Shown here: in pieces, positions 1 to 55,002 of the stretch
Position numbering within the stretch: the stretch's first letter is position 1
Layout: each line of letters begins with the position of its first letter
Notes under the pieces: generated by a model
Databases searched by the model: none
Told to the model about the DNA's origin: nothing
Seen by the model: the letters and a program-made list of their open reading frames with translations, nothing else
Origin: Cyanophora paradoxa CCMP329
Lineage: Eukaryota > Plantae > Glaucophyta
DNA: 64,000 bases
Direction: 5' to 3'
NCBI GenBank assembly: GCA_004431415.1
Contig: QPMI01000423.1
Location: 1-64,000, forward strand
Program-made: the position numbers and the translations under genes

Positions 1-419
1 TAAACATAAGGTTCGTTACATTTCATCGTCGCCTAATGGCATTTGATCCAATCTATACATCGGATAAGGGGAGTCAGCGCGCAAATGACCTCTCTACAAA
101 TTCAGGACATGATCGCCTTCTAATATGCTCTACATGCACGTCCTCTATCTGAGCGGTTTCGATATTAGAACTCATAGCCGCGGGCACAGGCGAGGGCGAT
201 CGAGATCGTGGGTGGTTTGTGATTGTCGCTGTGGTTAGAATATACAGAAAGGCGCCTACCTCCATTCTCGTCGTCAGAAATATTAACCTCTACGTTGTGT
301 CACAGCAAGACTGTGGCAATTAGTGACGAATGAAGCTGAAACATTTCAATGCATTGTGTGATGAAATTCATCGCATCCTACAAGACGCAACGTATTAAAT
401 ATCGGAGAAAATAAAAGGG

Positions 420-1200
420 AATGAGGGCTTTACTTGCTCGTGTTTCCCTTACGAATTGGTCGACTTATAATGCTGTTTATGGAGCCACCTGTCCCTATTG
501 CAAGGGAGTCCACATAAGACCCGCTCTAAATACGGGCGGGTTCAGCTTTGCCTTGCGGATATTCACAGCCATTAGCGGATATGGCGTTTACCACAAGCAT
601 TGCGGCATAATTCACGGGTGCGGTCGGCACAATATGTGCTATTGCGGGGCAACGATTGCTGTCGAGTTACGGCTTGCGCATCTGTCTTTTCTCTTTTTAA
701 TCTCTCTACGTCGACTTTTTGCTTTAATCCGAGTTTGGAGATCTCTTTCTTCACGAGCCCTTTAATTTCTTGCGTTCGTTATAATCTTGATCCATTTCTC
801 GTAGTTAGAGACTTTCATTTCAAGGTCTCGCACTTCTCTTCGAAGCTCATGACAACGTCGACAGGAACCGTGTGTTTTTGATAGGATCCGCGCTTTTTGA
901 GCTCAGTTTCGGCGGCTTTCGGGACGTCTTGCGTTTTGTGCTGGCTTGCGACAATTGCGCTTTAATTACTTTGTCGGTTGCTTCATCAACAGAGCGCCTC
1001 AATCTGTGGTTTTACAGTAGCTAAATCGTCCATTTGGCGTTTACCGCTATCTTGGTTTCCCTTGTCGCGGTGGCACTCGCAATAATCGCCTCTTGCTTGG
1101 CGACCTCCTCTGGCGAAGTGTCTATAGATATTCGGGCATTTCGAGACGCCACCCGACGTTAACCAGACTCTTCAGTCCGCGATTAGGATTACAGAAGCGA
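420..1200 (-). pseudogene. Frameshifted basic/charged viral hypothetical protein
   Basis: Lys/Arg/Glu-rich minus-strand fragments (e.g. 572..754 KKEISKLGLKQKVDVERLKREK) in several frames; no recognisable motif; boundaries approximate. Confidence 0.3.
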
Positions 1201-1239
1201 CAGTTTGAATGGTTTGAGGCTTCTTTCGGTAGACCATGA

Positions 1240-2097
1240 TTATCTTCTCTTACATTTGATTAACATTTTCTTTTTCTTAGGCGAAATTTGCGAAAGTTTG
1301 GGGATACCTTCAAGCTCACGCTCAAATTTGGATAAAGTTCGACAGACAGTTGTCGAATCTTTGACAGGCGGCGGTTTTGTCGCTTGCTCCTCTTGTTGTT
1401 TGCGCTTCTTTTCTTCAAAAGCCGCCCGCTTGTGGAATTTAGTAAACGGATGGTCATCGATCATATCGGCTTTTTCGACCACCATCGCACAGAATACCCG
1501 TATTATCGTGAATGATCGCTTGGTAGCTATGACAGAATTCTTGGAACATGCGCTTAAAACTCTCTTTATCCATGTTCCCGAACTCTTCGTGATATGCTTC
1601 AAACTCTCGCATGTTTGACCAGCTTAGGAATATGATATACTCCGCATTGCTGCGAATGATCGTTGAAAGCTTTGTTAGTTTCTGCGATATTAAAGCGACG
1701 CTACAAAACGTATGACGACCTTGCGCCATCAATTTATTTAGCAAATGATCGCGCGAGAGATCAATAGTTCCCGATTCCAAACAATCGTCGAGCACGATGA
1801 GAATATTCTTTGGTTTCTTACCCGCAATGATAGCCTTTTTGCGGGCTTCTATGATCGACTCTACGTATTCGGTTTCCAGTGTCATGTACTTCGTCTGTTA
1901 TTTGACCCAGAAACCGTTAAACTCGTAGGACAGAAAACCAGAACATACGAGATTGGTCTTCGAGTTCTTTGATCAGCCACTTTAAGAATACCGATTTACC
2001 ACAATTGGTTTTCGCCAATAGGAGAAATCGTGCGGGAAGTTTCACCCTCTGTTTCGGGTTCCATCTTCGAGATCCATGGGCGTTGTCCCTTTTGCAT
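1240..2097 (-). CDS. A32-like (FtsK-HerA superfamily) viral DNA packaging ATPase, frameshifted in this assembly
   Basis: Walker A AKTNCGKS (ORF 1917..2147), then Walker B ILIVLDDC, GRH, ISQ and IRSN motifs (ORF 1454..1885), all typical of A32 ATPases. ATG at 2097; the C-terminal tail probably continues in the 1240..1602 frame. Confidence 0.9.
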
Positions 2098-2154
2098 TCT
2101 TTCACTATAAAAACAATAGAAAAATAAGACTGACTGTGTAATCGCACGAATTCC

Positions 2155-3457
2155 TTAGCTACTTACTCTGCGAATACCATCAGCTTCGATTATCATGATA
2201 TTATGAGCGAGGGCGATGCACTGAATTTGCATCTTCTGATAAGCGGCACCCGCATACCACTCCTCATTACCGACTCCACGGCTGTGACACCATTGAATTC
2301 GAAGACCAGATCGAACGCCGATGTGCCTGTGGCATCGATGTAGCCCGTGTTCTCTTGGTTGAGAAGCGACGCCTTTCCGTTTCAGCACCGAAGTAAATGC
2401 CAGTGAGAGCGGGGTAGCTTGTGCTCTCGGTAAAGATCGCCGAATTATATTTATCTTGAAGTTCGGTCGCGGCAATCATGAGAGGAGCGAAGTATTCGAG
2501 TAAAGGCGGTTATTGTTGAGTTCCACATAGAAGTTCACAGCGTTGGTTCGGAGTGCACGAGGAGCCAGAACCGAGAGAGTTCCGTTGTTCACCTTCGTCT
2601 TCGCGTTTTGGCGCACAGAGAATACGAGAGTGTGGATGAGACCCGCACCTGTGAGTTGCGAGAGATTGACTCGCGAACGGAGGCGGTCGCTGGAATCTGT
2701 GTGTAGGAAACCGATTTCGTTGTAGGGGATCGCGATACCAGTCGATTTAACACGGGCAATGGTCTCAGATACAACCGCCTCATCGGCATTTACGACCTTG
2801 CAGATAATGCGGGGTTTCAGCACTTGAAGGGAAGCACCACTGTTTACGACGAAATATTGCCAACATTGTTTACATCCTCAATGATACCATCACCAATCGC
2901 CTTGAATTCGATTTCGACCACGATCTCAGAGTTCAGAGCGCAAAGTGGGACATCGCCTTCTCGAAAGGAGAGGGTAAATCGATTTCGTAGGTTCCACCGA
3001 CAGTGTTACCAGCGGTTCCGACAAGACCACCACATAGCGAAGTTTCTTATCGAGTTCGCCTGTTCGGTCATCAGTAGAAAATACTGAGTGACGAAATCCT
3101 CTGGGACAACGTAGCGGAATGAAGCGTGAGAGATTTCGATGCGCTTAATCAGCGATCCAATAACGCGAAGGTAGCCAGTGGTTGCAGCAACCCCATTCGT
3201 AAGATCAGTGAGGGTGATTGGGTTAAGATCGAGTTGCAGCGCGAGACCATTCAGGAAATGGTAGCGGGGGATTTTGAAGACAACTCGGTTGCCGAGAGCG
3301 CTGGGTGGCTCAGTGTCGGGGCGACCAGAACTCGAAGTGGCTTAGTGCCAGAGGACGTTCCAATGACCAGCGACTTGTTTAGGAAATAATCCTTGTAGTC
3401 GTCGGTGGTGAGCATAGATTTCAGCGTTGGGCGCTGGAATTGGCTGTTAGTCTCCAT
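2155..3457 (-). CDS. Major capsid protein (double jelly-roll-like), frameshifted
   Basis: About 1.3 kb of stitched frames: METNSQF..., LGNRVVFKIPRYHFLNGLALQLDL, VPLCALNSEIVVEIEFK, LIHTLVFSVR, C-terminal IQCIALAHNIMII. These follow the motif pattern of PLV/NCLDV MCPs; the gene sits between the ATPase and a penton-like gene. Confidence 0.75.
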
Positions 3458-3503
3458 GAGCGTTTCTTCTCTTATCTTTGGGATCAGAAAATAATTTAAA
3501 GGC

Positions 3504-4427
3504 TTAGTAGAAATTCATTTCGGGCGGTGCGTCGTAGGTTTCGATCTCAAAAGTGAAATAATGCGCCCAAACCCCGAAATCTAAGAGAGCGCCATCATGG
3601 TCGATGAGTTTAATCGTCAAGCGGTCGAACGATTTTAATTCGCGGAATTCTCGAATGAGAGGCACCGTAGTGGACGTGTCGAAGTGGTAGATATCACCAT
3701 GTTCGAGTTCCTGTGGATTGGAATGCGCATGAAATAACCATCGACGTGCTTGTTGACTGAGCGAATAAACGGCGCAAATTCATCAATATATAGCCAGATC
3801 ATCGCCGCCGGGGTCTCATCTCCACGAGTATAGCCGCGAATGCGTCGATTGAGTGTCACAGTTCCGTCCCAGGATTAAACACAAGGAATGTATCGCTTGC
3901 AAAAGGGGTAAATGTCTCGTAAACATATAGCTGAATATCTTTGAAACCGAATATTGCGAGTTTCTTAGCGATTGCTTTGCGATTACTGGATTTTCTGAGT
4001 GTTTCAGGGAAGCTTTGGAGAACTTGAACCAAAAGTTACTATCACTGAAAAACTCATAGATCTTTGAAGTAGTATTATAGCGGCATTTAATATATTTTCC
4101 ACCGAAATCTGAAAGGCGAGCTGCTTCGAGTCTTTCTGTGACTTTTGCGGCAAGGTCGTCTTTGGTGTAAAATCCTTTGGGGATTGTGATGGTCACGAAT
4201 CCGGAATCCGAAGCTGTGACCGAGAAATAGAGTTCCATGCGCTCGATGGTTGCACCAGTGGCGTCTATATCGTTTGTCACGGTCGAAAGAACATTGGGAA
4301 CCGTTGCCTGCACCAGGCGCACCGATTTTACGTTGTCATAGCGACGGGGTAATGTCACTACATACTGGTTTGGCTGAGTAAACTCCTCATCGCGATCATC
4401 GCTCGAAAAGCTCAGGTATTCTTTCAT
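3504..4427 (-). CDS. Minor capsid protein (penton-like) 1, frameshifted
   Basis: N-terminus MKEYLSFSSDDRDEEFTQPNQYVVTLPRRYDNVKSVRLVQATVPN, internal IWLYIDEF, C-terminus FDRLTIKLIDHDGALLDFGVWAHYFTFEIE; this is the usual pattern of PLV/NCLDV minor capsid proteins. Confidence 0.8.
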
Positions 4428-4443
4428 CTTACTATAATAGATT

Positions 4444-5283
4444 ATGAAAAGAATAACAATAAATTGCGACAGTAGAGACCTTGAAAACGGCGTGCTGCAC
4501 TTGAAAACGCGCCTTAATAATGTAAGGCGATTTCGTGTGCTATCAGCTGAGATTCCCAATAGCTCTTATGTTGTTCCGCCCGATCAGACAATAACTATAA
4601 CGCTTTTGAACGAAGAGCCCACAGTAATCCCGCATCCAAAATGATAGCACCGATTCCCAGCGTAAACGATTATTATTACGTCGATGCTGATAACGAACGA
4701 TATCCGAAAGAGAGAGCTTTAAACAGTGATGCTTTACTCGGTTTTTCAGGCGGTTCTTTTAATCCTCTCGGTCTCTTCCCGGTTTCCTATTCTCTCGCTC
4801 TGTCTACGAACCGCTTCGTGTTCTCATCTCCGAATAGCCCTTTTACATTAGAGTCCTCAGACCAGGAGTTCTGTGACTGTCTCGCATAGAACCGGAGTGG
4901 TTTACGCCAGCACACCAGAACCAGTGCCGGTTCCACTCAGAGATTACCCCAGTCGCTACGCGATTATATGCCGAAAATGGTCGACTTTAATGCAATTCCA
5001 TATATTTACCTTGATATCGAAGAGCTCCGCCTTTTACCAAATTCGCAGCGGTTACTGGAGACAGAACAATTTCGACGACTCCTATCTTTTGCGAATTCAG
5101 ATGAACTCGGACTTTGGTAGATATTCCTTTTACCACGAACCGAGCGCAAGCATCCCTTTCGTAAATGTCACATCGCAACTCGATTTAGATCGTCTCACAA
5201 TATCGCTTCGAAAATGGCGGGGCTCTGTTGCAGATATAAACGGTCTCTCATACTCGTTTCAGCTGGAAGTGATCACCGACTAA
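4444..5283 (+). CDS. Minor capsid protein (penton-like) 2, frameshifted
   Basis: MKRITINCDSRDL...LNNVRRFRVLSAEIPNS, internal YIYLDIEEL, C-terminus LDRLTISLRKWRGSVADINGLSYSFQLEV; same motif order as penton 1. Confidence 0.78.
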
Positions 5284-6770
5284 ACATAGTAGCCCTCGAA
5301 ATCAATTCGGCATGCCGAAGCTACGTTCGTCGTGAGCACCCAGATTACGAGGGTTCTCACAGATCTCGGTTTGCTAAGAAATGTTCGTCGGGATCAGCAC
5401 TTCCGGCTATTTGATTTGCATTGGTAAACACTCTCGTCGCGCCGGCTTCTGTGTATGTTACAAGCGCCGAAACTCCCGGAGTTAATTGGTAATCGATCTC
5501 AAACGTTTTAATGTAGTTTCCATTCGCAGCCGGCTTCATTTTTATAGAGGAAAGCATAAACAGACGCGGAAAATCAATGCGTAAATAATTGCCTCCCGAC
5601 CTACTACCTTGCGGTGGGTTGGTAAATCCCACCCACCCGTAGCATTTGACCAGCGGGCATCAGAAGCTGTGCCAAATTCCGCAATAAAGGCGCTATTATC
5701 GAGCGGCACCCAGTTAGACTCCGGGGTGCGCTTACATCTGTGCACCCGGACAGATTAATTATGGGAACATCGCCCTCTGAGATATTCATCGTCAGCACTG
5801 AATACATCGCATTAAAATACGTTTGCTGTGCGGAAACAAACGCGAGCGCTTCCGTTTCTAAATATTGCAGGTGACTCGTTGTGATAGTATCGAGGGTCAT
5901 TTTATCTTTCGGTAAAGGAACGCTCAGCTTATAGTAGCGATCGTAATTCTGATCATCGTTTCTGGGTAAAAGTTCCAGTAGCTTTACGTGGGCGTTTAGA
6001 TCGCTCGACTCTAAGAACATGCTGAGAATTGGCGATCCTGTGGCGCTTAGCATCCATTGCACGATCCCCCAATTTTTCATAGTGTCGTACGAATATCCCG
6101 CGATTGCTTTATCGGCGTCTTGGACGTGACCCGCCGTAATCGAGACCACTATAAGCTCCTCCTCGCAAGAGTTTCCGAATAAAGTGCGGGCGAATGTGTA
6201 GCCACATACCCCGGGCGAATTATTTCCACTCATGCAACCATCAATTAAACAATATGTTCTTCCGGCGACTGTGACTTGTTTCGGTTCGAAATAGGTCGGA
6301 GCAGCCGAGGTAGCCCTTGCAGCATCGCGCACAAGCATCCCATTAATATCTTCATCGTTGCTTGAAATAAAAACGGGGGACATTTGAACCGTGTCGAACG
6401 CAGTCACGATGGTGGGTTTATAGAGATCCGCCATAGTCGCCGAGCCGCAGAGATCCAGAGCCACAGCTTCTAAGTTAGTGGCTTCGTACTTTGGGCGCTG
6501 TACAATCGATGTAAGCACTCGTGGATTCGCGAAAATCAGCGGTAGTTTCGCTTTGTAGAGCGCCAGAATATCAGTGGCAGTATATTTAGGGGCGCCATCG
6601 GTTCCCTTGATATTCAATAGGAGCGCGATTAATCCACCTGTGGATGTTCCCGCAAAGCAGTCGAATAGCTGTTGGATTCGTTTACCGGTTTGGGCTTCAA
6701 TCTGTGCCAGTATAGCAGCCTCGATTATTCCACGCGACCCTCCACCACTCAGACATAAAACGGTCTTCAT
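5280..6770 (-). CDS. Patatin-like phospholipase with C-terminal F5/8 type C (discoidin)-like domain; frameshifts in 3' part
   Basis: Oxyanion motif SGGGSRG, nucleophile GTSTG, ATSAAPTYF and a DG(C) catalytic Asp. Downstream frames give YLRIDF...LSSIKMK...YIKTFEIDY...TYTEAGATRVF and VRTLVIW...CRIDFEGYYV-stop at 5280. Confidence 0.85.
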
Positions 6771-6813
6771 TATCTTATATACTTCTTATATATCTTCTTT
6801 GTTTATAAAGAGG

Positions 6814-9800
6814 ATGTCGTTCCTGAATCCGCGACCAGACGCACGAGTTATTAATTCGACCACTCAGATAGAGGACACTGATCAGGTAAACACTGAAATT
6901 CGCGGTCTCTGAAAATAAACTTCAATGCAGACCGCGAAGATCCAGTCAGTGGAACACCGAGCAGACCGCAGCTTTGCAGTTAATGAACGTCGAGAAAGGG
7001 GATCATAAACTTGGAATCGACTTTTTACTTGATGATAACGAACGAAACAGAGTCGCCAGCATTCAGGCAACCCGCCAGCTACCGAAAACGGTGCGATATA
7101 ATCGTAGGAACATCCCGAAAGCATTCGATAGAGGTCGCTTAAACTTCTTCATTCAAGATGAGAGCGGTTTCCAAAATGCAGCTATGAGAATCGTGGATAA
7201 TAGCACACTTATAGCGGGAGTATCCACACGGAAAACAAAGGTAGAGGTCGTCCATGATCTCTCAGCAGGTAATCTAACGACGAGTAACATTACAGCAAGT
7301 AACATCACTACGGATACCCTAAATGTAAACTCGCTCAACTCCGAGTCGTTTTTCGCCACCAATGTCGCAACCTGTAACCTAAACATCGAATCCTTTGTGA
7401 TTCAGAAGAGCGAATCGGTTCCCCAGATAACAGAGGGTGTTTTCACATTAGACCCGCGAAACCGACCTTAGAAATTGTCGAAAATGGGAACGTTGTCGAT
7501 ATAATTGGCGCCAATGCTCCGAATGTGAGATCCTTAGCACTTGATAAAACGACTATATCATTTGCAGAAGAAATTCCGGCTTTTACCACAGAGAAACAGG
7601 CACTGAGAACAGACCATGTTCACATAACCAGAGACAATATAAACGATCTTTTAGGCAAGGACATCGTAAAGGCGTTTTTGGAGTTTGAAAGGAGCAAGAA
7701 CACCAAAGATTCCAGCCAGGATGGAACCCTCACGACCCACACAACCGAAATCGCGGCTTTGCAATCAGAAATTAATGCTCTGTTTGCAGCAGATGGAGCG
7801 CTTGCAATTACCTTAGCCCATATTCTGTCGAAAAGGAACATATACCCCGCGACTGACAACACATACCGAGTTGGTTTATCGAATCTGAGATGGTCAGAGG
7901 TGCATGGAGTTTCCATGTTTGCCTCCAATTTAATCCTTCCATTAAATCACTCACTCCGACCTAATCAGATTCTTACCAATGGTAATGCACTGATCAGCTA
8001 CACCGACTATAATAGTAACCTTTCCGCTCGGTTTCGCAAACTGAGACCTACACTGTCGAGGGATACCCTCAGCAGCTCGCAAATGGGGTCTATGTCGCTT
8101 ATGTAGGCAAACCTACATATACATTCACTTGGGATCAGTTGGGTGTCACAGGTTTCGAGACGAATATACCCACTGTTTCATTGGTGGATCACACTACTTA
8201 TTATAATCCTATCTATAACAATAATGAATCTAATAAAGCATTTATCCAAAATGTCACCTCCACAGGGTTTCAGGTTTCGTTTGTCATTAACGAGACATAC
8301 AATTTACTTATCATCCGAAACAACTTGTTGACTTCCGAAGCTACTATTAGTTTCACTCTTAACATCAATTATATCACCCCTGAATTCGATAGCAAACCCA
8401 AAGTAAAGGTTTACCGAGATTTACAAGGTAGCAATATCGTGCCCTTCTCACAGAATTTCGATCTTGGTGCGAATTCATTAAGGTGGAACACAGTTTATTC
8501 TTTGAGTGCAAACACCTGTAATATTGTAGTCGCAGGTTCATCGGCTACTATTGGAGATCTGACCGCCCCTTTTAGAAAGGAGTATCTTAAAGAACTGTAT
8601 ATTACAAAGTCTGATTTACCAGATGCTATTTCGTTGGTGCTCTCCCCGACTCCCAGCATCTCATACCACAATGTGAAAGACACAAGTAATGTAGTGCGGA
8701 GTGGAAGCAAAGTATTCCAGGCATCCGAGATATCAGCAACAACATATAGATACCTTGCAGCGGTTCCAGCGAATTTTAATTTCACATTTGAGACACCATT
8801 TGTTTCCCCTCCTACTATTGAAATAACTGACACGAATTTGTATGTGATCAATAATGGGTCGACCACCTCTATTAACAATGCACCAGCCGGCTACTCCCCA
8901 TTTGTTGCAACTAACATAACAACCACCGGCTTCACACTTGTCGGAAATGCAACAGTGACATATGCTCTTACAGCATATCCTGTTGGGTTGTATTTTGCGA
9001 AATTTAATCTTTCAGCGATCCCACCTGTGTCCCTTTCTCCTCCCTTTACTATCAATTGGAAGGCAACAGGAACAATACCTCGGTTTGACTCCGAAGATCG
9101 ATTAAAAATAAGGTATCCTCTCGATGTGACCGACCTCCATACTACGAGAATAAATGGGCAGAATTTCGTATTTAATGGAACCAATGCGACTCTGATCGAT
9201 AATCGAGTTACAAATAATTACTTTTTCGATTCTCGATACATTAATACTTGCAACATTGTCATACATAAAACGTTTGAGGATCGCAGTAAGACCTTAACAG
9301 TCACCTTGCCCACTCATTCGAATGTCTCAGATGGATTTTACTATTATCTATTAAATCGCTATTACACCTCTTATATTCCATATCCTTCTGAGACTGTCAG
9401 CATGAGCTATCCCAAAGTCACCCTAACATCAACCAATGCTGACTTCTTTGGATCCACAGACTTCATGAGAGACTTCTTTTATTTTACATCCTCCACAGAT
9501 GGTCTCTTAGTTTATTACTCTTACAGATATGAATCTATTGCTACCCAAATTGACAGTCACCCAAATACAGATGTCATCGAAGTGGGCGATAAGAAATATA
9601 TAAAAACCGCTTCCCCATGGGTTTGCACTGTCCGGCTCGATGACAGATACACTCCTAACCTAAATAACATTGGAATGCACTCGACATGCAATATTTATGT
9701 GCAAGGTGCGATTTCGGCTACCAAATATTTTGAGGGTGGAAATTGTGATACAGGACATAGGTTGCTATCGCGAAATGGACTCTTTGAGTCATTCAGTGGG

Positions 9801-10382
9801 ACGGCTCTACCGCCTTTTATCAGGGACACAGTCTATGATACCACATGCAATATTTGGGTGTGTCGATCTGTGAGCAATCCACCTGTGACACAGGAATTAT
9901 ACAAGTATCTCGCAGATACCTATGGTGCAATCTCAGGATCCTCCACAGGAAATCCAGCGACGGCTCCCATCGTGTTTGCAAATGCATACACAGCGCCGAC
10001 ATCATTAGCAGGGTCGACAGAGCCGCCACCAAACGATCCCAATCCGAACCAGCCTAACCCAGATCCCGATTCAAAAGATCCCCCTACAACTAATCCAGAT
10101 CCAAACACACCACCTAATAATCCCACGAATCCTACAAATCCAGTCGGGGCACCGGGAACAAATCCAGGAACGTTAGTGCTTATGATTCTCTTGCCGATTC
10201 TCGGTGCTCTTGGGCTTGTGCTTGCATACAAATTCCGAGCTTTATGTTGTGCTTGCATAGACAGAACCATTGCAGGAGCAGGTAATAAATACTCAACACC
10301 AGAGCTTAATGTGACCCAAACAGCCGAAGGAGATGTGGGCTTAGAGGTGAGATCAGCCGAGGGCATGGTCTTAGTGTTGTGA
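6814..10382 (+). CDS. Large fibre/spike-like protein with C-terminal transmembrane helix (5' third frameshifted; 8139..10382 intact)
   Basis: SNIT repeats; fibre-type motifs NIYPATDNTYRVGLSNLRW and NIVPFSQNFDLGANSLRW; lectin-like FTFETPFVSPPTIEI...TNITTTGFT; Pro/Asn/Asp linker; hydrophobic LVLMILLPILGALGLVLAY followed by KFRALCCAC. May be more than one gene. Confidence 0.6.
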
Positions 10383-10571
10383 GGACTGACCGACCACCAG
10401 CAAATAGGGCAGCACCCAAAAAATCACGAGCACAAGAATTGGCAGAGCAAACGATGAACAATGATAGAGACTTTATGGCGGAAATGGCACAGCGAGAAGG
10501 GAGAATATATGAACATGTTCCAAACGTTATGTAACAACCTTAATTTTTGTAGTATTCCATAATAGAGTATA

Positions 10572-13500
10572 ATGACTGAACCCATAGTAGAAACGACAAT
10601 AAAGAATGCGGTATTGGATAATAATTTTTATATAACCCATGCCAATATACCCAGTGAATCCAATGACCTGATAGTAGATCTAAAAGGGTATGTGATGGGA
10701 GCTATGGCTTCCAACCTGTGGAATGACATTTTTGGTTACGAGTTTGGTCACATATATGACATAGCAAATGGGATTGGCTATGTGGATGCAATGGCGGGAA
10801 CAGTCTTTCGAAATCTTAATTGCAACTGTGTGGGTGGGTGGATGTTTCAGATCTGTTCAAACGTCGATCCTACTATTGATCCAGCTACTGTGACCTTTGA
10901 TTGCAATCTATTCGCCCCTAAAACCATTTTCTCCATCACTTGCAACCTTGTATGTTCAGATGTGCCCATTGTAGCACCTGTAATAGGTGCATCCAATATG
11001 TATATCCAAAGAAATCCGGTCGTGCATACAGGCGCCGAATTTATATTAGGCGACAACACCCCGATTTGCAGACTCGATCGCGATTTACCTAACAGCCATA
11101 ATCTCATGTATTTCACCTCTGAAAATCGCCTTTCGGGTGATTTCTCACCAATTGAACTCACCATACCAAAGCAGAAGGTGAGCTACAAAGAACTCACAGA
11201 TGTTCCTTTAACGTTTCCACCCAGTTCTCACGAGCATTTGTGGGAGCATATCACCAATCGACCATTAACCTTCCCACCTGATCCACACACTCATGATTAC
11301 TTGTCTCTCAAAGGTGGTGTTATCTCATCTAATCTTACAATTTCATCAAACCTTACAGTTACAAGTAACATTTATGCCAGTAACATTTATGCCAGTAACA
11401 TTTACAGCAGTAACCTATGGGCAAGTAATATTAATGGAAGTAATGTAATAGTCGATTATCTCACTGTGAAGATTGAAGCAAACCTACCAAATCACCCGAC
11501 ATCGAATGTTGTTTTAGATTGGTTAGCAAAGCAAAAACACACAAAAGCAGATATTACAGATTTTGCCCACACTCACACAAAAGATCAAATAACAGATTTC
11601 GCCCATAAGCATTTATGGGAAGATATCACAAATCCCCCATCCACCTTCCCACCGGGAAAACACACACATGATTACTCAGAGATTACTAATAGTAACCACA
11701 GGCACCCATGGGATGAAATAGATGAGCAGCCAGTTTTTGCGCAATTGAATGCAATCGGAAACGTTTTTAATGGCGTCACACTTTACCAATCGATTAATAC
11801 ACCTGAAAGGCTGTTTTTGAATGATCATTACGTAAATCTCAATGGGACATTCACAGGTGAAACAGGCACACCGATGGTGGGAACTCTTGCAGTAAGATTA
11901 CCCAGGGATCCAATTGTAAATGGAGTTTATGATGGTGATTTCAATGTAGGAGTAAATGATACTTTCCCCAGTATCTATGTTACGAATTATCACCCGGGTG
12001 AAACAGGACAAGTAGAGAATTTCTCGGCAGCAATACAAGTAAATGTAACAGATCAAAGTGCATATGATGGAGCAAGACCTAAGATAGTTTTCACAAGGGA
12101 GAAAGTTGTAAACTATCTTCCTGTTGTGGGACAACCCACAGATGATCACGGAAAATGCGAGATTGCATGGATAAAAACGACAACAGGTGGCGCCTTAGAA
12201 GTCAATCAGAGAATGGCAGCTAAAAACTTACACAATACCACCCTTTCCGGTGTTGTTACAGATGATTACCTCGAAAGCAAAAACTATGTAGATGATACAG
12301 AACTTGCAGCAATTCTTGAAGATTATGTAACAGATACCGAATTAACGTCGGCTCTTGGGGATTATTTACCCCTTACAGGCGGGACTCTCACAGGTGATGT
12401 GCATGCTCCGAATTTCTTTGTGGACACTCCGAATGATCAGTCATTCCCTGTTGTCCACCTTGGTGCTGAATATGTATTAGATCCAAACACTCCATTTAGT
12501 CGACTTGAATTACCCAATGTTCACAGGCATTTTTGGGAGCATATCATCAATCCCCCATCGACCTATCCACCTGATTCACACGATCATGATTATTTACCAC
12601 TAACAGGTGGAACTGTTGCAGGTGATGTGCATGCTTCTAATTTCTTTGTTACTACTCCGAATGATCAAACATTTCCTGTTGTCCACCTTGGTGCTGAATA
12701 TGTATTAGATCCAAACACTCCAATTAGTCGCATTGAATTACCCAATGTTCACAATGTTCGACCATTAACCTTCGCACCTGATCTACACACTCACACAAAG
12801 TCAGAGATTACAGATTTTTCACACACTCACACAAAGTCAGAAATAACAGATTTTGCCCATACCCACACAAAGTCTCAAATTACAGACTTCCCGACATTTG
12901 CGACTGTGGCAACAACTGGAAACTATGATGATCTGATAAATACACCAACATACACTTCACCAACTGATTTTGACGCTACAAGTGGTATTTCCACAGACCG
13001 CACAGGAGATTGGAGAGATTATGTTGGGCAACCACTTGTAGGTGACACAAGCACTTGGGCAAACACATGGATTGATGGTGATGATGATTGTAGTAGCTGT
13101 AAGATGTATTGGACTGTTCCAACAGACATGAAATCATGTTATATCTATTATACGTGTCAGTATGACAGTAGATACTTTGATGTTGTTGGAATTGAACCAT
13201 CAAACAATACTTATACTCGTTTACGAGTAAATGCCTATGCTCCTGGAATTAATCCTGTAAGAGATTTTAAACAGTTTGTTGCAATAAATTGTGAAGGACT
13301 TGTTAAAGTTGGTGTTCATGGACAAATAGGAAGAATTTATCTTCCAGGTCCGATTACTGTTGGTTGGAGCAAAAACCCCGCTATATCGTCACACAGTGGT
13401 TTCCTCCATTGGAATAATATATACGGGAAGCCAACAGCTTCTACGACTGTCGGTCCTCACTCTCATTTTAAAGCAGATATCACAGATTTCGCACATAGTC

Positions 13501-14108
13501 ACACAAAGGCAAATATAACAGACTTCGCCCATACTCACACAAAATCGGAAATCACGGATTTCCCAACCTTAGACCCATTTGTAGCGAATACAATTACAGC
13601 CAATAACACCATGTATGTGGGATCCGGTCAAATTTACCAACCGAATGCGCCACTTTATTTGGAACAATGGTTTTTCCACAATTCCGCAAATATATACGAT
13701 AAAACGTTATTATGTCGGGGAAATGCTTACGCAAGAGCATATTATGCAATGGATGAAACAGATAATACAAAGATTGCAAAACTTGTTTCAGAACAGCGTG
13801 TCAATAAAGACCAGTATATACAAACAGGGAAATTCTCAAAATCTTTGACAATCACAGGTCCGGGTCATTGGGGATTTCCACAGGTTGTCACATTCCCGAA
13901 AGCATTTGCGGAAGCCCCAGAAGTGGTTCTCAATCTGATACAAGGATATAATGGTGGTTCATATGTATTGGTATATGGTGTCACAAGTTCCACAACAACA
14001 ACATTTACTATTCATGCAACAATTTCGGCAGAACATGCATTCAATGAAAGCATTGGACTTTTCCACTATCAAATGAGTTATATAGCAACAGGGAAGATGG
14101 TAGCATAA
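10572..14108 (+). CDS. 1178-aa tail-fibre-like protein with His-x-His (HTHTKSEITDF) repeats
   Basis: Intact ORF with many HxHTKxxITDF and HxHxWxxI repeats, YLPLTGGT motifs, SNIYA repeats and a C-terminal lectin-like segment (VTFPKAFAEAPEVV...STTTTFTI), all recurrent in phage tail fibres. Confidence 0.8.
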   Translation: MTEPIVETTIKNAVLDNNFYITHANIPSESNDLIVDLKGYVMGAMASNLWNDIFGYEFGHIYDIANGIGYVDAMAGTVFRNLNCNCVGGWMFQICSNVDPTIDPATVTFDCNLFAPKTIFSITCNLVCSDVPIVAPVIGASNMYIQRNPVVHTGAEFILGDNTPICRLDRDLPNSHNLMYFTSENRLSGDFSPIELTIPKQKVSYKELTDVPLTFPPSSHEHLWEHITNRPLTFPPDPHTHDYLSLKGGVISSNLTISSNLTVTSNIYASNIYASNIYSSNLWASNINGSNVIVDYLTVKIEANLPNHPTSNVVLDWLAKQKHTKADITDFAHTHTKDQITDFAHKHLWEDITNPPSTFPPGKHTHDYSEITNSNHRHPWDEIDEQPVFAQLNAIGNVFNGVTLYQSINTPERLFLNDHYVNLNGTFTGETGTPMVGTLAVRLPRDPIVNGVYDGDFNVGVNDTFPSIYVTNYHPGETGQVENFSAAIQVNVTDQSAYDGARPKIVFTREKVVNYLPVVGQPTDDHGKCEIAWIKTTTGGALEVNQRMAAKNLHNTTLSGVVTDDYLESKNYVDDTELAAILEDYVTDTELTSALGDYLPLTGGTLTGDVHAPNFFVDTPNDQSFPVVHLGAEYVLDPNTPFSRLELPNVHRHFWEHIINPPSTYPPDSHDHDYLPLTGGTVAGDVHASNFFVTTPNDQTFPVVHLGAEYVLDPNTPISRIELPNVHNVRPLTFAPDLHTHTKSEITDFSHTHTKSEITDFAHTHTKSQITDFPTFATVATTGNYDDLINTPTYTSPTDFDATSGISTDRTGDWRDYVGQPLVGDTSTWANTWIDGDDDCSSCKMYWTVPTDMKSCYIYYTCQYDSRYFDVVGIEPSNNTYTRLRVNAYAPGINPVRDFKQFVAINCEGLVKVGVHGQIGRIYLPGPITVGWSKNPAISSHSGFLHWNNIYGKPTASTTVGPHSHFKADITDFAHSHTKANITDFAHTHTKSEITDFPTLDPFVANTITANNTMYVGSGQIYQPNAPLYLEQWFFHNSANIYDKTLLCRGNAYARAYYAMDETDNTKIAKLVSEQRVNKDQYIQTGKFSKSLTITGPGHWGFPQVVTFPKAFAEAPEVVLNLIQGYNGGSYVLVYGVTSSTTTTFTIHATISAEHAFNESIGLFHYQMSYIATGKMVA

Positions 14109-14148
14109 TATTCTCACGTAATAATAATAATATTCTCACGTAATAATA
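14105..14148 (+). repeat. Perfect 22-bp tandem duplication (ATAATATTCTCACGTAATAATA x2) between fibre genes
   Basis: Read directly: 14105-14126 equals 14127-14148; lies just upstream of the ATG at 14164. Confidence 0.9.
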
Positions 14149-14163
14149 AAGAACAATCAAAAG

Positions 14164-15159
14164 ATGTCGACAGTATTCACGCCTGTCTTCTCCCTGAGCG
14201 CCTCAGCTGTCCACAACGTGCAACACACTATATATGATCTAAGTGAGTCATTCCCTTCGACTGAGACAGCGAAAACCGATTCTTTCAATGAGACCTCCAT
14301 TCTCAGAGTCAAAGAACTCAGAGCTGACAAGGCTGGTGGAATCGTTAAAGCTACTGAACTGATCGTATCGAATCGACCCGCAATCTCTTCGGGGCTGGTC
14401 ACCAAAGAAAATCTATATGAAGGTCAACAGGATTCCAAAACGGCTTTTAATCCGGCTGATAGGAATTCGGCGGCTTTTCAAGTTATTAGTGGTGGTGCCT
14501 GGATCGGGACTGGACTGAGTGTGAATGGGAGTGCAACAATTACTGGAAGCCTTTCAGCTTCGGGTGGATTCACTGGTTTACTCACAGCAAGTGGTGGGAT
14601 TAAAACGAATTCTATTGATACTGTGGGGGCAACTGATAATTTTACGATAAAGAGAAACGGGGCAACTGTTGCTTCTACATATTCAACAGGTGTGTCTCCA
14701 AATGATTCGTATGGTTTAACAATAAATGGGAGTAAATGCTATCTTGCTCTTCCAAACCACCCCCGTTTCTGTGTTGCACTAACAGCTCCAATCGCTACAA
14801 ACGGAACCATTGGTAACTGGAATTATACATTTCTAAATCATGGAAACCATCTAGCAACATCAACAGGCATCTTCACAGCACCTGTTTCAGGTCACTACAA
14901 GTTCATCTTCTCAGGAGTAACAACAGCAAATAATGTTAATACACAGGTTATCCTGCGACAAAGTAACCTTACAACTCAACTTATTGCACATTCTCCTGGA
15001 CTTGGATCACCACTGAGTAGATCTATTGGGTTTAATTTTAGTGTTAATATGGGAGCGGGAGATACTGTGAGGTTAGATCTTTATGGTGGTGGATTGGATT
15101 CAGCAGGAACACCGGCGATGTATACTGTGTGGTCTGGTGAATTAATTTCTGCAACATAG
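14164..15159 (+). CDS. Fibre-like protein with C-terminal C1q/TNF-like domain
   Basis: Gly/Ser/Thr-rich shaft, then PRFCV...LNHGNHLATSTGIFTAPVSGHYKFIFSG...VNMGAGDTVRL...WSGELI, matching the C1q signature (GxFTAPVxGxYxF, GDxV, SGxL). Confidence 0.8.
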   Translation: MSTVFTPVFSLSASAVHNVQHTIYDLSESFPSTETAKTDSFNETSILRVKELRADKAGGIVKATELIVSNRPAISSGLVTKENLYEGQQDSKTAFNPADRNSAAFQVISGGAWIGTGLSVNGSATITGSLSASGGFTGLLTASGGIKTNSIDTVGATDNFTIKRNGATVASTYSTGVSPNDSYGLTINGSKCYLALPNHPRFCVALTAPIATNGTIGNWNYTFLNHGNHLATSTGIFTAPVSGHYKFIFSGVTTANNVNTQVILRQSNLTTQLIAHSPGLGSPLSRSIGFNFSVNMGAGDTVRLDLYGGGLDSAGTPAMYTVWSGELISAT

Positions 15160-15168
15160 AATAAAAGA

Positions 15169-15432
15169 ATGTCGAACATCTACCAAGTGGTTCTAACTGA
15201 CACTGAGAAACTGGGAATGGAATACTGTGCCTACTCTGTTCAGGATTGGATCGATAATATGGCTCATAATAGGGCGAGAATCGCGATTGATGAGATTGTG
15301 GACAAAGAAGTTAAATCGTGTATTGCCGCTGGAATTCCGATTCCACTCACAAAGGAAGCGATTGTGGAGCAAGCATTTAATCGGGGGACTGTTCGAAAGG
15401 CAAGCGAAATTCCTGTAAGTGCTCCTATGTAA
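15169..15432 (+). CDS. Small phage-like protein, putative fibre partner/chaperone
   Basis: 87 aa starting 9 nt after the C1q gene. YQVVLTDTE...QDWIDNMAHNRARIAIDEIV...IPLTKEAIVEQAF resembles small proteins recalled from aquatic phage tail regions; not verified by search. Confidence 0.65.
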   Translation: MSNIYQVVLTDTEKLGMEYCAYSVQDWIDNMAHNRARIAIDEIVDKEVKSCIAAGIPIPLTKEAIVEQAFNRGTVRKASEIPVSAPM

Positions 15433-15672
15433 AGAATTCGAAGAATGAGAGAGGCGCAGCCGAGGCAGCTTGTCTGACGACTGGGTTTATTGTTATTTTT
15501 CATAGATCATGCATAAGAAAGGCATGTATCTTGCATAGTGGGCGGGGCGCGAGTGGTTCCAGTGCATTAAATGGAACATTTCGATTGAAGTCGCGAGTTT
15601 GTGCAGGTGGGCATTTTCGGCATGCTTGCTCATGCACATACTCGCTTTAAAAAATATAAAATGAAATTCGGT

Positions 15673-15996
15673 TTAACTCTTACGAGTTTTGCTATAACAC
15701 TCTCGGCATTGATAGTTGAGACCATCCTTCGTTCTTTGTCTTTTATTAAACTCACTTGCAAGCTTCTCAATCTTGCAGTGCGAGCATATCTTCGATTGCA
15801 CTTCGATTTTCGGACGCGTTTTTAACACGAAATGATAAAGGTAATTGTGATAGTCTCGGTCGCAGACTTTGCATCTCCAATTTAAAGTAACATTCCCTGA
15901 GCTACGCTTTTGCAATGCATAACTCGATGCCGGTTTTACCTTATCGCAAACATTGCACCGCTTAGTCTCAGGTAGATTTACTTGATTGCTTGCCAT
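15673..15996 (-). CDS. Tandem CxxC...CxxC zinc-finger protein
   Basis: Two repeats, KRCNVCDKVK...WRCKVC and KICSHCKIEKLASEF...QCREC, like the Zn-binding modules that precede HNH/endonuclease VII domains in viruses; no nuclease domain seen. Confidence 0.7.
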   Translation of the reverse strand: MASNQVNLPETKRCNVCDKVKPASSYALQKRSSGNVTLNWRCKVCDRDYHNYLYHFVLKTRPKIEVQSKICSHCKIEKLASEFNKRQRTKDGLNYQCRECYSKTRKS

Positions 15997-16363
15997 TGTT
16001 ACAGTATATTAACTGGAAGTCTTTAAGTGGGGATCACTTGTTTAATTGGTGGGGCTCACCTTGATTTTTCAATTTGGGTAACTGAAAACAGTCCGGAAAC
16101 GATCGGGAACATTTCGTAAAAATGAGGGTCTTACTGTCCTTACTGAGAGATCGGGGGAAAGTTAAAGGGCTTACTGGGAATGGTAAGGAATTAGAAAAAT
16201 GAAGAATGAAAGGGTTTCGTGATTGGTTTCAGTAAGGAAGGGTTAGATGTTTGAAAAATACAATGTGGCTCAGTGCGAATTTGTGATTTTGTGACTGAGA
16301 TTCGTGATGCTGAAAATGTGCTTATTGAAAATGGTCGCGGGAAGGTCGCGCAATTGGTGGGGG

Positions 16364-17650
16364 CTACCCCCATGCGAGCAGGCTCACGAGCCGCCCGATC
16401 TCCGGCGGTAACGTCGTCAACTTGTTGTCGTTCGCGTAAAAACACTTCAAATTTACAAGCTGCCCGATCTCCGGCGGTAGCAATGTAAGCTGGCCATGGT
16501 TGTCACTGAGATTCAGCTCCCTCAGATTCCCGAGCCGCCCGATCTCTGCAGGGAGCGTTCTCAACTCGTTTCGCTGCAACAAGAGCTTTTCCAGGTTCCC
16601 AAGCTGGCCGATCTCTGGCGGTAGAGCTGCAAGCTTGTTGTTGTCCGCACACAGCGTCCTCAGGTTCGCCAGCCGCCCGATCTCCGGAGGCAGCGCTGCG
16701 AGCCTGTTCTTGCTGATATTTAGGTTCTTCAGGCCCACCAGCTGCCCAATCTCTGGAGGCAATAGTACAAATGAACAGCCGGTCACAGAAAACTCCTCCA
16801 GGTTCACAAGTCGACCGATTTCCAGGGGAAGCGCTGTCAACGGATTGCCATCTGCATGCAGCTTCTTGAGGTGTAAGAACAGTCCAATCTCCTCTGGGAG
16901 AGCCGGCAACCCACTGCAGGCCACGTTCAGCTCCTCCAGATTCGCCAGTCCTGCGAGCGCCGCCCAGGTTCCGGTGTTGCTCGTAATCATGGATGAAAAG
17001 TACTTGAGGTTCAGCACACGGAGCATCTTGAGCTGCACAAACTCAGGCGGCAGCTGGGATCCGTAAAATTCCAGGTCGAGCAGCTGCAAATTCACAAGCT
17101 GTCTGATCTCCGCTGGCAGTGATGTCAGCCCGTTGTGTCCCAACGAGAGCTCCACCAGGTTCACGAGCTTCCCGATCTCCGGAGGCAGCGCCGTGAGCTC
17201 GTTCCTGCTGACGTCGAGCTTCTTCAGGTGCGTGAGCCGCCCGATCTCCCGTGGCAGCGCCGCCAGCTTGTTGCTGCGCACGTACAACTCCTCCAGGTTT
17301 ACGAGCTGCCCGATCTCCGGCGGTAGCGATGTGAGCTCGTTGTCGCTGGCGAGAAGCCGCCTGAGGCCCGCGAGCCGCCCGATCTCCGGCGGCAACGCCG
17401 TCAGCCGATCAATGAATATATCGCCCTCCACATTCAGCTCCTCCAGGTTCGCCAGCTTCGCGAGCTCGGCCCAAGGGACGCTCGTGGCCGAGCAGCTCTT
17501 GAGGTCCAGCACGCGGATGTTCTCAGGGCCCGCCCGCTCGATCGCCGCCGCTGCAGCTGCGGCCGACTGCGCGTTTGCCGTCGTGAGGACCAGCTTCCCC
17601 TCGCCGGCAATCCATGTCCAGCCATCGATATCGACGTCCCCCGCATGCAT
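16364..17650 (-). pseudogene. Host leucine-rich repeat protein, 3'-truncated at the viral boundary
   Basis: GC-rich and intronless, with many 23-aa LxxLPPEIGxLxNLxxLxLxxN repeats. The last repeat breaks at EIGRLVSLL-AWG-stop exactly where base composition changes. First ATG at 17650. Confidence 0.85.
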
Positions 17651-19119: not shown

Positions 19120-19490
19120 ATGCGGGGAGGGCGCTCGGGCGGGGCCGGGGGCGGGGCGGGGCCGGGCCGGGCCGGGGCGAGGCGGCGAGCCATGCGGGCG
19201 AAGCGGGACTCGCTGCGGGAGGCGGGTCGGCGAGGAGGGCGCGGGGCGGGCCGGCCTCGACCACGCGGCCCCGCTTCAGCACCAGCACCCGGTCCGCGTC
19301 CGCGATCGTCCCCAGCGCTAGCCTGGCCCGCCCCGGGCCCGGCGGCCCCGGCCCGGCCCCGCCCGTCAGCCCAAGATATCGATCTAGATCTAGATCTAGA
19401 GGCCCCGCCCGGCAGCCGGGGCGGGGCCCGGGGTTTAGAGCGAGGCCGAGGGCGCGGGGCCGGGGCCCCGCGGGCGGCCGCGGGCGCTGC
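19120..19490 (-). pseudogene. Degenerate duplicate of the last exon and intron of the ABCC transporter gene
   Basis: Colinear with ~22036-22370 (TIADADRVLVLxRGRVVEAGPPRALLADP) with indels; no upstream exons. Confidence 0.85.
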
Positions 19491-19953
19491 GGGCACTGCA
19501 GGCATAGGTCCGGATCCAGCCATGGCCAGGCAGGAAGGACTGCGCCGCTGTTTCCAGCTGCAGCGGCTCGGCACGGACCGGACCGTACGCGTCACTCAGA
19601 GCCGGGCCGGGGCGGGGGAGATGTCACAGTGTACGTAGTTATAATTATAAGCGGAGGGGATCCGGAGTCCTAGCCCCGCGTGCGGATCCGGAGGGGAGAC
19701 TAAAATTAAAGGGATCCAGGATCCGGAGGAGGTTAAAATCCCAAATTTTAGAAGCGAGGATCAAAGGGTGGAATATTATTTGATCGGCAGCCACGGGGGA
19801 TCCCCCCGCTGCCGGCCGGAGGGGAGGGGAGGAGAGGAAAATCCGGAAAAGGCATGCATGCGCATGCGCAGATCGATATCGATCAACTCGCGCCGCGTTC
19901 GACACACACGCGGCGTTCGCGATAATTCAAGCCGCAGCTGATCGATCGAGGCC

Positions 19954-21974: not shown

Positions 21975-22033
21975 TCGAACGATACACGTACGTACACATG
22001 TATATCGCGTATTGTAAACCAACGAGAGTCCGA

Positions 22034-32696
<10,663 letters not shown>

Positions 32697-39984: not shown

Positions 39985-40005
39985 CGGGGGTACGCCAGAA
40001 TGGAG

Positions 40006-54901: not shown

Positions 54902-55002
<101 letters not shown>

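What the first reader, a model, noticed from the sequence alone, without database searches (positions are those of the whole stretch)
1..16374. Endogenous Polinton-like virus with an unusually elaborate virion attachment/entry module
Seen: a low-GC intronless island with ATPase, MCP and two penton-like genes, followed by ~10 kb of lipase and fibre genes, joined directly to host DNA. Known: ATPase + MCP + penton is the core of Polintons, PLVs and virophages, which integrate in protist genomes. Inference: the combination of twin pentons, patatin-discoidin, a membrane-anchored fibre, an HxH fibre and a C1q fibre with partner may define an undescribed lineage with a complex, phage-like adsorption apparatus in an algal host.
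Basis: partly seen in the sequence, partly recalled or inferred. Interest (0 to 1): 0.88.

Follow-up and report, generated by a model that had tools for sequence, protein, structure and literature searches.

The report
Integrated small virus of glaucophyte alga
This is one end of a small DNA virus that lies in many copies in the genome of what is likely the alga Cyanophora paradoxa; the family is already catalogued, and its giant-virus-like shell and phage-like fibres likely let particles stick to and enter cells.

Summary
Window 1–16,379 (GC 43.7%, flank 68.2%) encodes an A32 ATPase, a double jelly-roll MCP, two paralogous penton-like genes, a patatin lipase and three fibre-like genes. The MCP homologue's model matches PBCV-1 at Z 25.6 and Sputnik at 15.5.

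Short-read contigs of six runs show viral contigs about 30–50 times deeper than the flank, a depth cliff at 16,379/16,380 (not 16,374) and other flanks behind that end. They carry an extra letter at all 12 listed breaks, so the frameshifts are likely assembly errors.

The 'undescribed lineage' claim is mostly wrong. Bellas 2023 lists near-identical Cyanophora paradoxa MCPs (85/86, 51/52 residues; 366 hits). Bulzu 2025 tabulates 156 glaucophyte elements and reports their discoidin domains, patatin fusions and a PTR–H-lectin fibre.

Not found in what I read:
- twin giant-virus-type pentons;
- a fibre with a transmembrane anchor;
- a C1q-plus-partner gene pair shared with freshwater phages;
- signs that fibre tips differ between copies.

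The replication and integration genes and the left end lie outside the window.

The parts
1..16379 (.). Right-hand part of a multi-copy integrated PLV-type virus; open at the window's left edge
   Evidence: GC 43.7% against 68.2%; depth cliff at 16,379/16,380 in 4 of 4 runs
1..1240 (-). Short broken reading frames, basic and Cys-containing; unassigned
   Evidence: No Pfam or PHROG hit for the 2 pieces scanned; of 14 pieces scanned in NCBIfam one gave a chance-level E 0.045
1454..2100 (-). A32-type DNA packaging ATPase, split by a frame break; start approximate
   Evidence: Pox_A32 E 5.4e-6, 26.5 bits against cut-off 22.8; Walker-A-like motif in the 1,920-2,162 piece
2155..3457 (-). Major capsid protein, double jelly roll of giant-virus type, in several frames
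   Evidence: Tiles P0001; the P0001 model matches PBCV-1 at Z 25.6, rmsd 3.6, 327 aligned and SGIV at E 3e-16; near-identical to published C. paradoxa MCPs
3504..4427 (-). Penton-like gene 1 (likely single jelly roll), frame-broken
   Evidence: DUF5901 E 0.004, below cut-off; the only PDB hit at E<=10 is PBCV-1 P1, E 0.09; single-sequence fold failed
4444..5283 (+). Penton-like gene 2, divergently oriented paralogue of gene 1, frame-broken
   Evidence: N- and C-terminal pieces align with gene 1; shuffles 0/2000 and 1/2000
5280..6770 (-). Patatin phospholipase, likely fused to a C-terminal discoidin (F5/8 type C) domain across frame breaks; end approximate
   Evidence: Patatin E 4.3e-22; F5_F8_type_C E 0.08 on 5,360-5,659; glycine-rich loop, GxSxG serine and DG aspartate motifs visible
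6814..10534 (+). Fibre-like gene with an H-lectin-like segment, a Pro/Asn/Asp-rich linker and one C-terminal hydrophobic helix; broken at the 5' end; a tail may continue past the stop at 10,382 in another frame
   Evidence: H_lectin E 2e-4, below cut-off; weak tail PHROGs on two 5' pieces; KD19 2.64; open frame to 10,534; no phage relative
10572..14108 (+). Intact 1,178-aa fibre with HxH repeats (phage tail repeat like) and a C-terminal H-lectin-like domain
   Evidence: PHROG tail hits to E 2.6e-13; PTR E 0.002, H_lectin E 0.02; 147 phage records match in part; 36-nt repeat spacing (D12)
14164..15159 (+). Intact 331-aa fibre with a C1q head; this head appears rare among the copies
   Evidence: C1q E 6e-7, above cut-off; contigs over 14,511-15,038 are only 1.4-2.4 times flank depth
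15169..15432 (+). 87-aa partner gene, phage-like; likely a fibre cap or chaperone
   Evidence: 44-49% identical to proteins of two freshwater phages (3 records); in both phages the gene upstream ends in C1q
15673..15996 (-). 107-aa double zinc-ribbon protein, like the zinc fingers of endonuclease VII and HNH proteins
   Evidence: PHROG hits E 8.7e-14 to 3e-4
16066..16379 (.). Terminal non-coding region shared with other element variants; small imperfect palindrome at 16,358-16,372
   Evidence: Contigs join at 16,066 and 16,347 from unlike sequence, and unlike flanks follow 16,379; fold z only -1.8
16380..17650 (-). Intronless LRR gene of the flank whose 3' end is cut by the insertion
   Evidence: LRR families to E 5e-46; the ORF runs 16 nt into the element and stops at 16,364; flank-depth contig

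Best explanation
The stretch is the right-hand 16.4 kb of one copy of a multi-copy Polinton-like virus integrated in the genome of what is likely Cyanophora paradoxa, and its genes likely build a giant-virus-type icosahedral particle whose fibres would bind surface sugars and whose patatin lipase would breach the membrane. Shown here: the gene set, the fold of a close MCP homologue, the multi-copy end, and extra letters at the listed breaks. Inferred: (1) the family likely spread by an rve integrase encoded left of the window; (2) copies are likely silenced by host CpG methylation; (3) on induction, perhaps by a co-infecting giant virus, MCP trimers and the two pentons would form the shell and the A32 ATPase would package the DNA; (4) HxH-repeat shafts would trimerise at the vertices and present H-lectin, discoidin and C1q heads; (5) the tips likely vary between copies, and the C1q-plus-partner pair was likely taken from tailed phages.
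For: Fold and closest structures. Published near-identical C. paradoxa MCPs, and 366 MCP hits in two clusters; P0002 carries a C. paradoxa label. Single MCP-region contigs are 31, 29 and 34 times deeper than the flank contig in X2, X4 and X7, and about 50 times in X1. Depth falls 4,281 to 113, 1,475 to 90, 114 to 12 and 5,815 to 231 across 16,379/16,380. A flank-depth contig starts at 16,350 without mismatch in 5 of the 6 runs laid (X1's starts at 16,392), and other flanks follow 16,379 in 3 of 4 runs as listed. An extra letter is seen at 12 of 12 listed places in all 4 runs, each extending a same-letter run. Bulzu Table S6, 156 glaucophyte elements: rve 85, tyrosine recombinase 0, pPolB 49, lipases 89, Pox_A32 139, proteases 0. 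Lipase and tail-like fibre were found in Gezel-14T virions. Viral genes are methylated in C. paradoxa. C1q-partner order is the same in 2 of 2 phages.
Against: No integrase, polymerase, left end or target duplication lies in the window. The junction contig has 30 letters on the viral side, one short of the tool's 31-letter bridging rule, and no long reads were available. Summed contig depth is not a copy number. The fold is that of a homologue, at moderate confidence. Penton, discoidin and H-lectin calls are below curated cut-offs. Only 12 of 90 indel rows were shown, so some breaks may be real decay of this copy. The host species comes from viral sequences, not from a host marker. No virion, expression or binding data were obtained.
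Confidence: 0.82

Rival explanations
1. A Mriyavirus-related or other Nucleocytoviricota-like dwarf virus rather than a PLV in the strict sense: same particle, rolling-circle (HUH) replication, possibly an inner membrane.
For: The best structural matches are all Nucleocytoviricota MCPs. The glaucophyte row is the only one of the 21 seen with NCLDV-type mCP hits (15 of 156), and only 2 of 156 hit the polinton MCP profile. A preprint reports Mriyaviricetes-related regions in a glaucophyte assembly. A PLV-Mriyavirus continuum, some of it with rve integrases, is described.
Against: No HUH, VLTF2/3 or Mriya48 hit among the pieces scanned from the 16.4 kb. Mriyaviruses lack DNA polymerase and integrase, whereas the glaucophyte set has pPolB in 49 and rve in 85 of 156. 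I recognised no solved PLV MCP among the listed structural matches, so the ranking cannot separate the two readings.
Confidence: 0.25
2. A decayed relic: this copy, or the family, no longer makes particles and persists as methylated repeats.
For: Many frame breaks in 1-8,023. CpG o/e is 0.61-0.65 over 9,400-15,159, with TpG and CpA raised. Repeats and viral genes are methylated in C. paradoxa.
Against: Short-read contigs carry an extra letter at 12 of 12 listed breaks. ORFs of 787, 1,178 and 331 codons are open. The capsid module has no CpG loss (o/e 1.2-1.4). Such false frameshifts are a known artefact in EVE assemblies.
Confidence: 0.2
3. A fragment of an endogenised giant virus (GEVE).
For: Giant-virus-like MCP fold and P1-like penton. 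GEVEs are reported in C. paradoxa from best-hit taxonomy.
Against: A sharp end is shared by tens of copies with different flanks. P0001 has no Pfam hit at E<=10. The capsid-fibre layout is compact, with no giant-virus informational gene found in 16.4 kb.
Confidence: 0.05
4. A free or episomal virus in the culture, joined to host DNA by mis-assembly.
For: High depth, position at the window's edge, and no contig meets the 31-letter bridging rule.
Against: A flank-depth contig begins 30 letters inside the element and runs into host DNA without mismatch in 5 of 6 runs, and further flanks exist. Sixteen runs hold 0.70-0.74 of the words.
Confidence: 0.04
5. The lipase acts in exit or in killing an infected cell rather than in entry, and the membrane-anchored fibre is a cell-surface protein of the infected or lysogenic cell rather than a virion part.
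For: The patatin's best NCBIfam match is the CBASS phospholipase family (E 3e-39; 135 bits, below the 200 cut-off). A transmembrane helix is unexpected in a membrane-free capsid.
Against: The gene lies between the pentons and the fibres and appears fused to a sugar-binding domain. A lipase is in Gezel-14T virions.
Confidence: 0.25

Closest known systems
Cyanophora paradoxa endogenous viruses of Bellas et al. 2023 (PMC10120064, Tables S2 and S4) and the glaucophyte PLVs of Bulzu et al. 2025 (PMC12220804)
   Same: MCP pieces identical at 47/47, 85/86 and 51/52 residues to Table S2 rows 100 and 102 (compared by eye); HHpred hits there are to iridovirus and other giant-virus MCPs; Pox_A32 ATPase, lipase, discoidin and a PTR-H_lectin fibre are all reported.
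   Different: Twin pentons, a membrane-anchored fibre, the C1q-partner pair and copy-to-copy tip variation are not mentioned in the parts read. Whether this very copy is in their catalogue was not determined.
Gezel-14T (PgVV), Aquintoviricetes
   Same: MCP, penton, A32 ATPase, virion lipase and phage-like tail fibre.
   Different: An alpha/beta hydrolase instead of patatin; one fibre and one penton named; tyrosine recombinase; haptophyte host. Helper dependence is shown there and untested here.
Mriyaviruses and NCLDV-like PLVs (Zoravirus VC102, VC134, VC218, Zephyrvirus)
   Same: Small genome with a giant-virus-like MCP and A32 ATPase; rve in some groups; lipase ORFs in Zephyrviruses; a few yaravirids carry two minor capsid types or a duplicate.
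   Different: HUH, Mriya48 and VLTF2/3 were not found in the visible half. No endogenous Zephyrvirus is known, whereas this family is endogenous in high copy number.
PBCV-1 and SGIV capsids (Nucleocytoviricota)
   Same: Best structural matches of the MCP model (Z 25.6 and 24.7; E 3e-16) and the only PDB sequence hit of penton 1 (P1).
   Different: Only 8-14% identity; a giant genome against a small integrated multi-copy element.
Tail gene pairs of Limnohabitans phage DC33 and Synechococcus phage S-SRM01
   Same: A C1q-ending gene directly followed by a homologue of the 87-aa partner.
   Different: Bacterial hosts and tailed-phage-like gene context; the C1q heads are only faintly alike in sequence (pairwise E 1e-4 and 2e-5).

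Membership tests
Polinton-like viruses (broad sense) | Double jelly-roll MCP | tested here: met
   The model of homologue P0001 matches DJR MCPs over residues 24-431, Z 25.6, rmsd 3.6, 327 aligned; window pieces are 44-69% identical to P0001
Polinton-like viruses (broad sense) | A32-like packaging ATPase | tested here: met
   Pox_A32 above cut-off
Polinton-like viruses (broad sense) | [quoted passage not shown] | tested here: inconclusive
   Weak DUF5901 and PBCV-1 P1 hits; fold failed at pLDDT 33
Polinton-like viruses (broad sense) | Integrated in a protist genome, often in many copies | tested here: met
   Depth cliff, flank-depth contig entering the element and other flanks; 30 letters on the viral side, one short of formal bridging
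Polinton-like viruses (broad sense) | Length 14-40 kb with terminal repeats, an integrase and a replication gene | not testable with these tools
   The element runs off the window at 1; no whole genome is held
Polintoviricetes (Maverick-Polintons) | pPolB, rve integrase and cysteine protease | not testable with these tools
   Left part missing; in the published glaucophyte set proteases 0, pPolB 49 and rve 85 of 156
Virophaviricetes (virophages) | Virophage-type MCP | tested here: not met
   Sputnik Z 15.5 and mavirus Z 14.3 against 25.6 for PBCV-1; 0 of 156 glaucophyte elements hit the virophage MCP profile
Mriyaviricetes | Nucleocytoviricota-like MCP and ATPase | tested here: inconclusive
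   Top structural matches are Nucleocytoviricota MCPs, but no tree with Mriyavirus or PLV references could be built
Mriyaviricetes | HUH endonuclease, VLTF2, VLTF3, Mriya48 | tested here: inconclusive
   No such hit in the pieces scanned; the left part is unseen and frames are broken
Giant Nucleocytoviricota (GEVE) | Genome over 100 kb with PolB and transcription genes | tested here: inconclusive
   None found in 16.4 kb; a shared multi-copy end speaks against it; left part unseen
Patatin-like phospholipases | Glycine-rich loop, GxSxG nucleophile, catalytic DG aspartate | tested here: met
   Pfam E 4.3e-22 over 1-185 of 191 positions; motifs visible in the translation (motif names recalled)

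The most novel reading that the evidence does not exclude
The Cyanophora family is its own branch between PLVs and giant viruses: an integrating virus of PLV size with a PBCV-1-like shell, two pentons and an inner membrane that anchors a lectin spike. Its tens of genomic copies swap phage-derived fibre tips (H-lectin, C1q and others) and so form a built-in library of receptor specificities, in a cultured host.
Probability: 0.2. Interest if true: 0.72.

Novelty: new member of a known kind. Interest (0 to 1): 0.38.

Why it matters
As catalogued, it is one more copy of a known endogenous virus family. Its value is as a handle. Bellas and Sommaruga 2026 report no host for the NCLDV-like Zephyrviruses, whereas this family, whose capsid also looks giant-virus-like, sits in a cultured model alga. 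There one can test induction, virion make-up, the presence of an inner membrane and fibre-tip variation, which bears on how small integrating viruses relate to giant viruses. The C1q-partner pair is a concrete case of a phage tail cassette in a eukaryotic virus.

Tried and rejected
Searches for relatives with genomic context found nothing: 6 scans of IMG/VR (ATPase piece, P0001, partner, P0007, P0004, penton piece) and 2 of JGI metagenomes (P0002, A3). These use short exact patterns, so the blanks are weak. Alignment A2 was too divergent to scan.

The penton piece gave no homologue among 65 candidates, and its single-sequence fold was uninformative. P0001 has no Pfam or PDB sequence hit at E<=10, and the A2 profile has no PDB hit. 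Five intact window ORFs are not in the exact-sequence collection. No phage relative was found for the C1q gene or the 787-aa frame.

The ESM Atlas gave no answer, and the C1q-partner complex was not modelled.

No second copy or inverted repeat of the element lies elsewhere in the window. The terminal palindrome is not significant as a fold (z -1.8).

Two joints hint at copies with other fibre lengths or heads: 14,530 to 15,168 in 4 of 4 runs, and 11,606 to 12,790 in 3 of 4. They have only 19-22 letters on the short side and the second lies in repeats, so they are hints only.

Weak Pfam and NCBIfam hits (ferrochelatase, LcrV, P56, VMAP-M4, Stc1, apt, Prp) were rejected as chance. Earlier scan findings: none returned.
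Full report
Observation. Window 1-16,379 has 43.7% GC against 68.2% for the rest. An 8-nt C/G-run motif occurs 125 times in the flank and never in the island. Left of about 8,020 the frames are short (longest 393 codons); right of it, frames of 787, 1,178 and 331 codons are open. Pfam gave three hits above cut-off in the island: Pox_A32, patatin and C1q. Below cut-off were DUF5901, F5/8 type C, H_lectin (twice) and PTR (27 pieces scanned). PHROGs link the 1,178-aa gene to phage tail proteins and the 107-aa gene to endonuclease-type zinc fingers.

Capsid. A 111-aa window piece found one longer relative, P0001 (431 aa, 64%), which tiles 3,424 to 2,158 in three frames. A full HMMER search of 1.84 billion representatives gave 5 proteins at E<=0.001, P0001 itself included, so the MCP family is sparse outside this host. 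P0002 is a EukProt protein of Cyanophora paradoxa. The AlphaFold2 model of P0001 (7 rows, pLDDT 60.6, pTM 0.70) matches SGIV and PBCV-1 MCPs first in Foldseek (E 3e-16, 1e-15). In VIA-align, PBCV-1 scores Z 25.6 (rmsd 3.6, 327 aligned), Faustovirus 23.7, PRD1 18.9, Sputnik 15.5 and mavirus 14.3. The named top rows in BFVD are giant-virus and ascovirus MCPs. I recognised no PLV MCP among the listed matches, so 'closer to giant viruses than to virophages' is shown, while 'closer than to PLVs' is not.

Pentons. The two divergent genes at 3,504-4,427 and 4,444-5,283 align at their N- and C-terminal pieces (pairwise E 0.001 and 1e-4; 0 and 1 of 2000 shuffles reach the scores). Gene 1's only PDB hit at E<=10 is PBCV-1 P1 (E 0.09). 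That P1 is the PBCV-1 penton and that DUF5901 marks giant-virus pentons is recalled, not from a call. The fold test failed. Paralogy is supported; penton identity is likely.

Integration and copy number. Of 24 listed runs, all of one organism, 16 hold 0.70-0.74 of the words of 8,600-18,500. I laid 6 of them. Single contigs over the MCP are 31 (X2), 29 (X4) and 34 (X7) times deeper than the flank contig, and about 50 times in X1. The tool warns that depth is no copy number, so I read this as 'tens of copies'. At fine scale, depth drops between the bins ending at 16,379 and starting at 16,380 in 4 of 4 runs. A flank-depth contig starts at 16,350 and runs into the LRR gene without mismatch in X2, X4, X6, X7 and X16; in X1 it starts at 16,392. 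That puts 30 letters inside the element, the most a 31-mer assembly can give and one short of the tool's bridging rule. Unlike flanks follow 16,379 in X2 (1 contig), X7 (2) and X6 (2); the table was cut (10 rows not shown). These flanks share their first three letters, and the window resembles them, so the true end may be 16,381. The insertion cuts an intronless LRR gene.

Frameshifts. All 12 indel rows shown (of 90) are a single extra letter in all four runs, between 1,065 and 8,023, and each extends a same-letter run. This is the pattern of long-read consensus errors (established knowledge). Bellas et al. describe false frameshifts in EVE assemblies. The contigs mainly represent other copies, so real damage to this copy is not excluded.

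Attachment module. The patatin keeps its catalytic motifs. Its best NCBIfam family is the CBASS phospholipase, below cut-off. The gene at about 6,814-10,382 ends in a Pro/Asn/Asp linker and one strong hydrophobic helix (KD19 2.64), and an open frame continues to 10,534; no relative was found. The 1,178-aa fibre has 10 HxH-type repeats by my pattern, a duplicated internal block, and partial matches in 147 phage records. The 87-aa partner is 44-49% identical to proteins of Limnohabitans phage DC33 and Synechococcus phage S-SRM01, and in both the upstream gene ends in a C1q domain, so the pair is likely a phage cassette. Contig depth relative to the flank falls from about 30 at the MCP to 8-15 in the distal HxH fibre and 1.4-2.4 over the C1q head; the longest contig there differs from the window at 14 places. 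This suggests that heads differ between copies, but the supporting joints are short. CpG o/e is 1.2-1.4 in the capsid module and 0.61-0.65 over 9,400-15,159, a sign of mosaic origin or of longer exposure to methylation.

What is known. Bellas et al. 2023 (PMC10120064; main text parts 1-3 of 7 and supplement rows read) list C. paradoxa MCPs in Table S2 that match window pieces at 47/47, 85/86 and 51/52 residues (by eye). Their HHpred hits are to SGIV (97.0) and Pyramimonas virus (92.1) MCPs, and Table S4 gives 366 MCP hits in two clusters, about 7.3% of the genome. Bulzu et al. 2025 (PMC12220804; section 9, section 13 part 1, Table S6 and Fig. S6 text read) report discoidin mainly in rhizarian (n=23) and glaucophyte (n=11) PLVs, alone, in pairs or fused to patatin, and a PTR-PTR-H_lectin fibre in a C. 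paradoxa PLV, and propose a role in entry. Their 156 glaucophyte elements carry rve 85, pPolB 49, lipases 89, proteases 0, tyrosine recombinase 0, NCLDV-type mCP 15 and polinton-type MCP 2. Sarre et al. 2025 (PMC12344493; abstract, passages, section 9) show CpG methylation of repeats and viral genes in C. paradoxa. A preprint (10.1101/2025.04.19.649669; passages) notes Mriyaviricetes-related regions in a glaucophyte. Bellas and Sommaruga 2026 (10.64898/2026.06.19.733378; part 1, section 6, passages) describe NCLDV-like PLV groups without naming Cyanophora in the main text; its supplements were not seen and may place this family. Roitman (10.1101/2022.07.28.501842), Yutin (PMC11253617), Barth (10.64898/2026.10.13.758929) and PMC11161782 were seen as passages only, with Barth's abstract as well.

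What I did not find in print. A search for cyanophora + virus + endogenous + polinton gave 1 paper. C1q does not occur in Bulzu's main text or in the 12 listed of 42 papers. These searches cover open-licence papers only.

Verdict. A real, integrated, multi-copy small DNA virus, most likely of C. paradoxa, belonging to a family that is already catalogued and whose lipase-lectin-fibre set is largely described. It works like Gezel-14T-type PLVs (inferred); strict class membership is open because the left half is unseen. The unreported points are the giant-virus-type shell with twin pentons, the membrane-anchored fibre, the phage C1q cassette and the likely variable tips. They justify moderate interest.

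Noticed in passing
window 9,400-15,159 against 1-6,770: CpG o/e drops from 1.2-1.4 in the capsid and lipase genes to 0.61-0.65 in the distal fibre genes, with TpG and CpA raised: a compositional mosaic inside the element.
   Followed up: partly
window 16,364-17,650 (-): An intronless 428-aa LRR ORF in an intron-rich genome, cut at its 3' end by the virus; GC 60%.
   Followed up: partly
window 16,066 and 16,347: Contigs of other element variants join the terminal region from unlike sequence at these places, so different subtypes share the last about 310 or about 33 bases.
   Followed up: partly
   Followed up: partly
window 17,780-19,050: An AT-richer stretch (53% GC in 18,001-19,000) with many short palindromic words and TATA-like repeats between the LRR gene and the next genes; possibly a repeat element.
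   Followed up: no
window 54,001-57,000: A second low-GC stretch (46-48%) with a long (TA)n run near 54,900-55,000; no BLAST similarity to the viral part.
   Followed up: partly
window 51,392-51,635 and 60,600-60,843: A 244-nt direct repeat (93%) 9.2 kb apart, apparently a duplicated host exon.
   Followed up: no
window 19,100-32,500: Exon-like pieces of an ABC transporter gene, with two similar segments near 19,120 and 22,036 (recognised from translations by recall).
   Followed up: no
window 38,900-41,500: Host genes recognisable by eye: a complex I 49-kDa subunit C-terminus ending near 38,988 and a HisA-like enzyme near 40,300-41,500 (recalled, not searched).
   Followed up: no
L002 2,053-5,303: Synechococcus phage S-SRM01 has two consecutive C1q-ending genes before the partner homologue, one annotated as putative endosialidase.
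   Followed up: partly
L001: The record of Limnohabitans phage DC33 (39 kb, with long fibre-like and lysin genes) is filed under Inoviridae, which looks like a mislabel.
   Followed up: no
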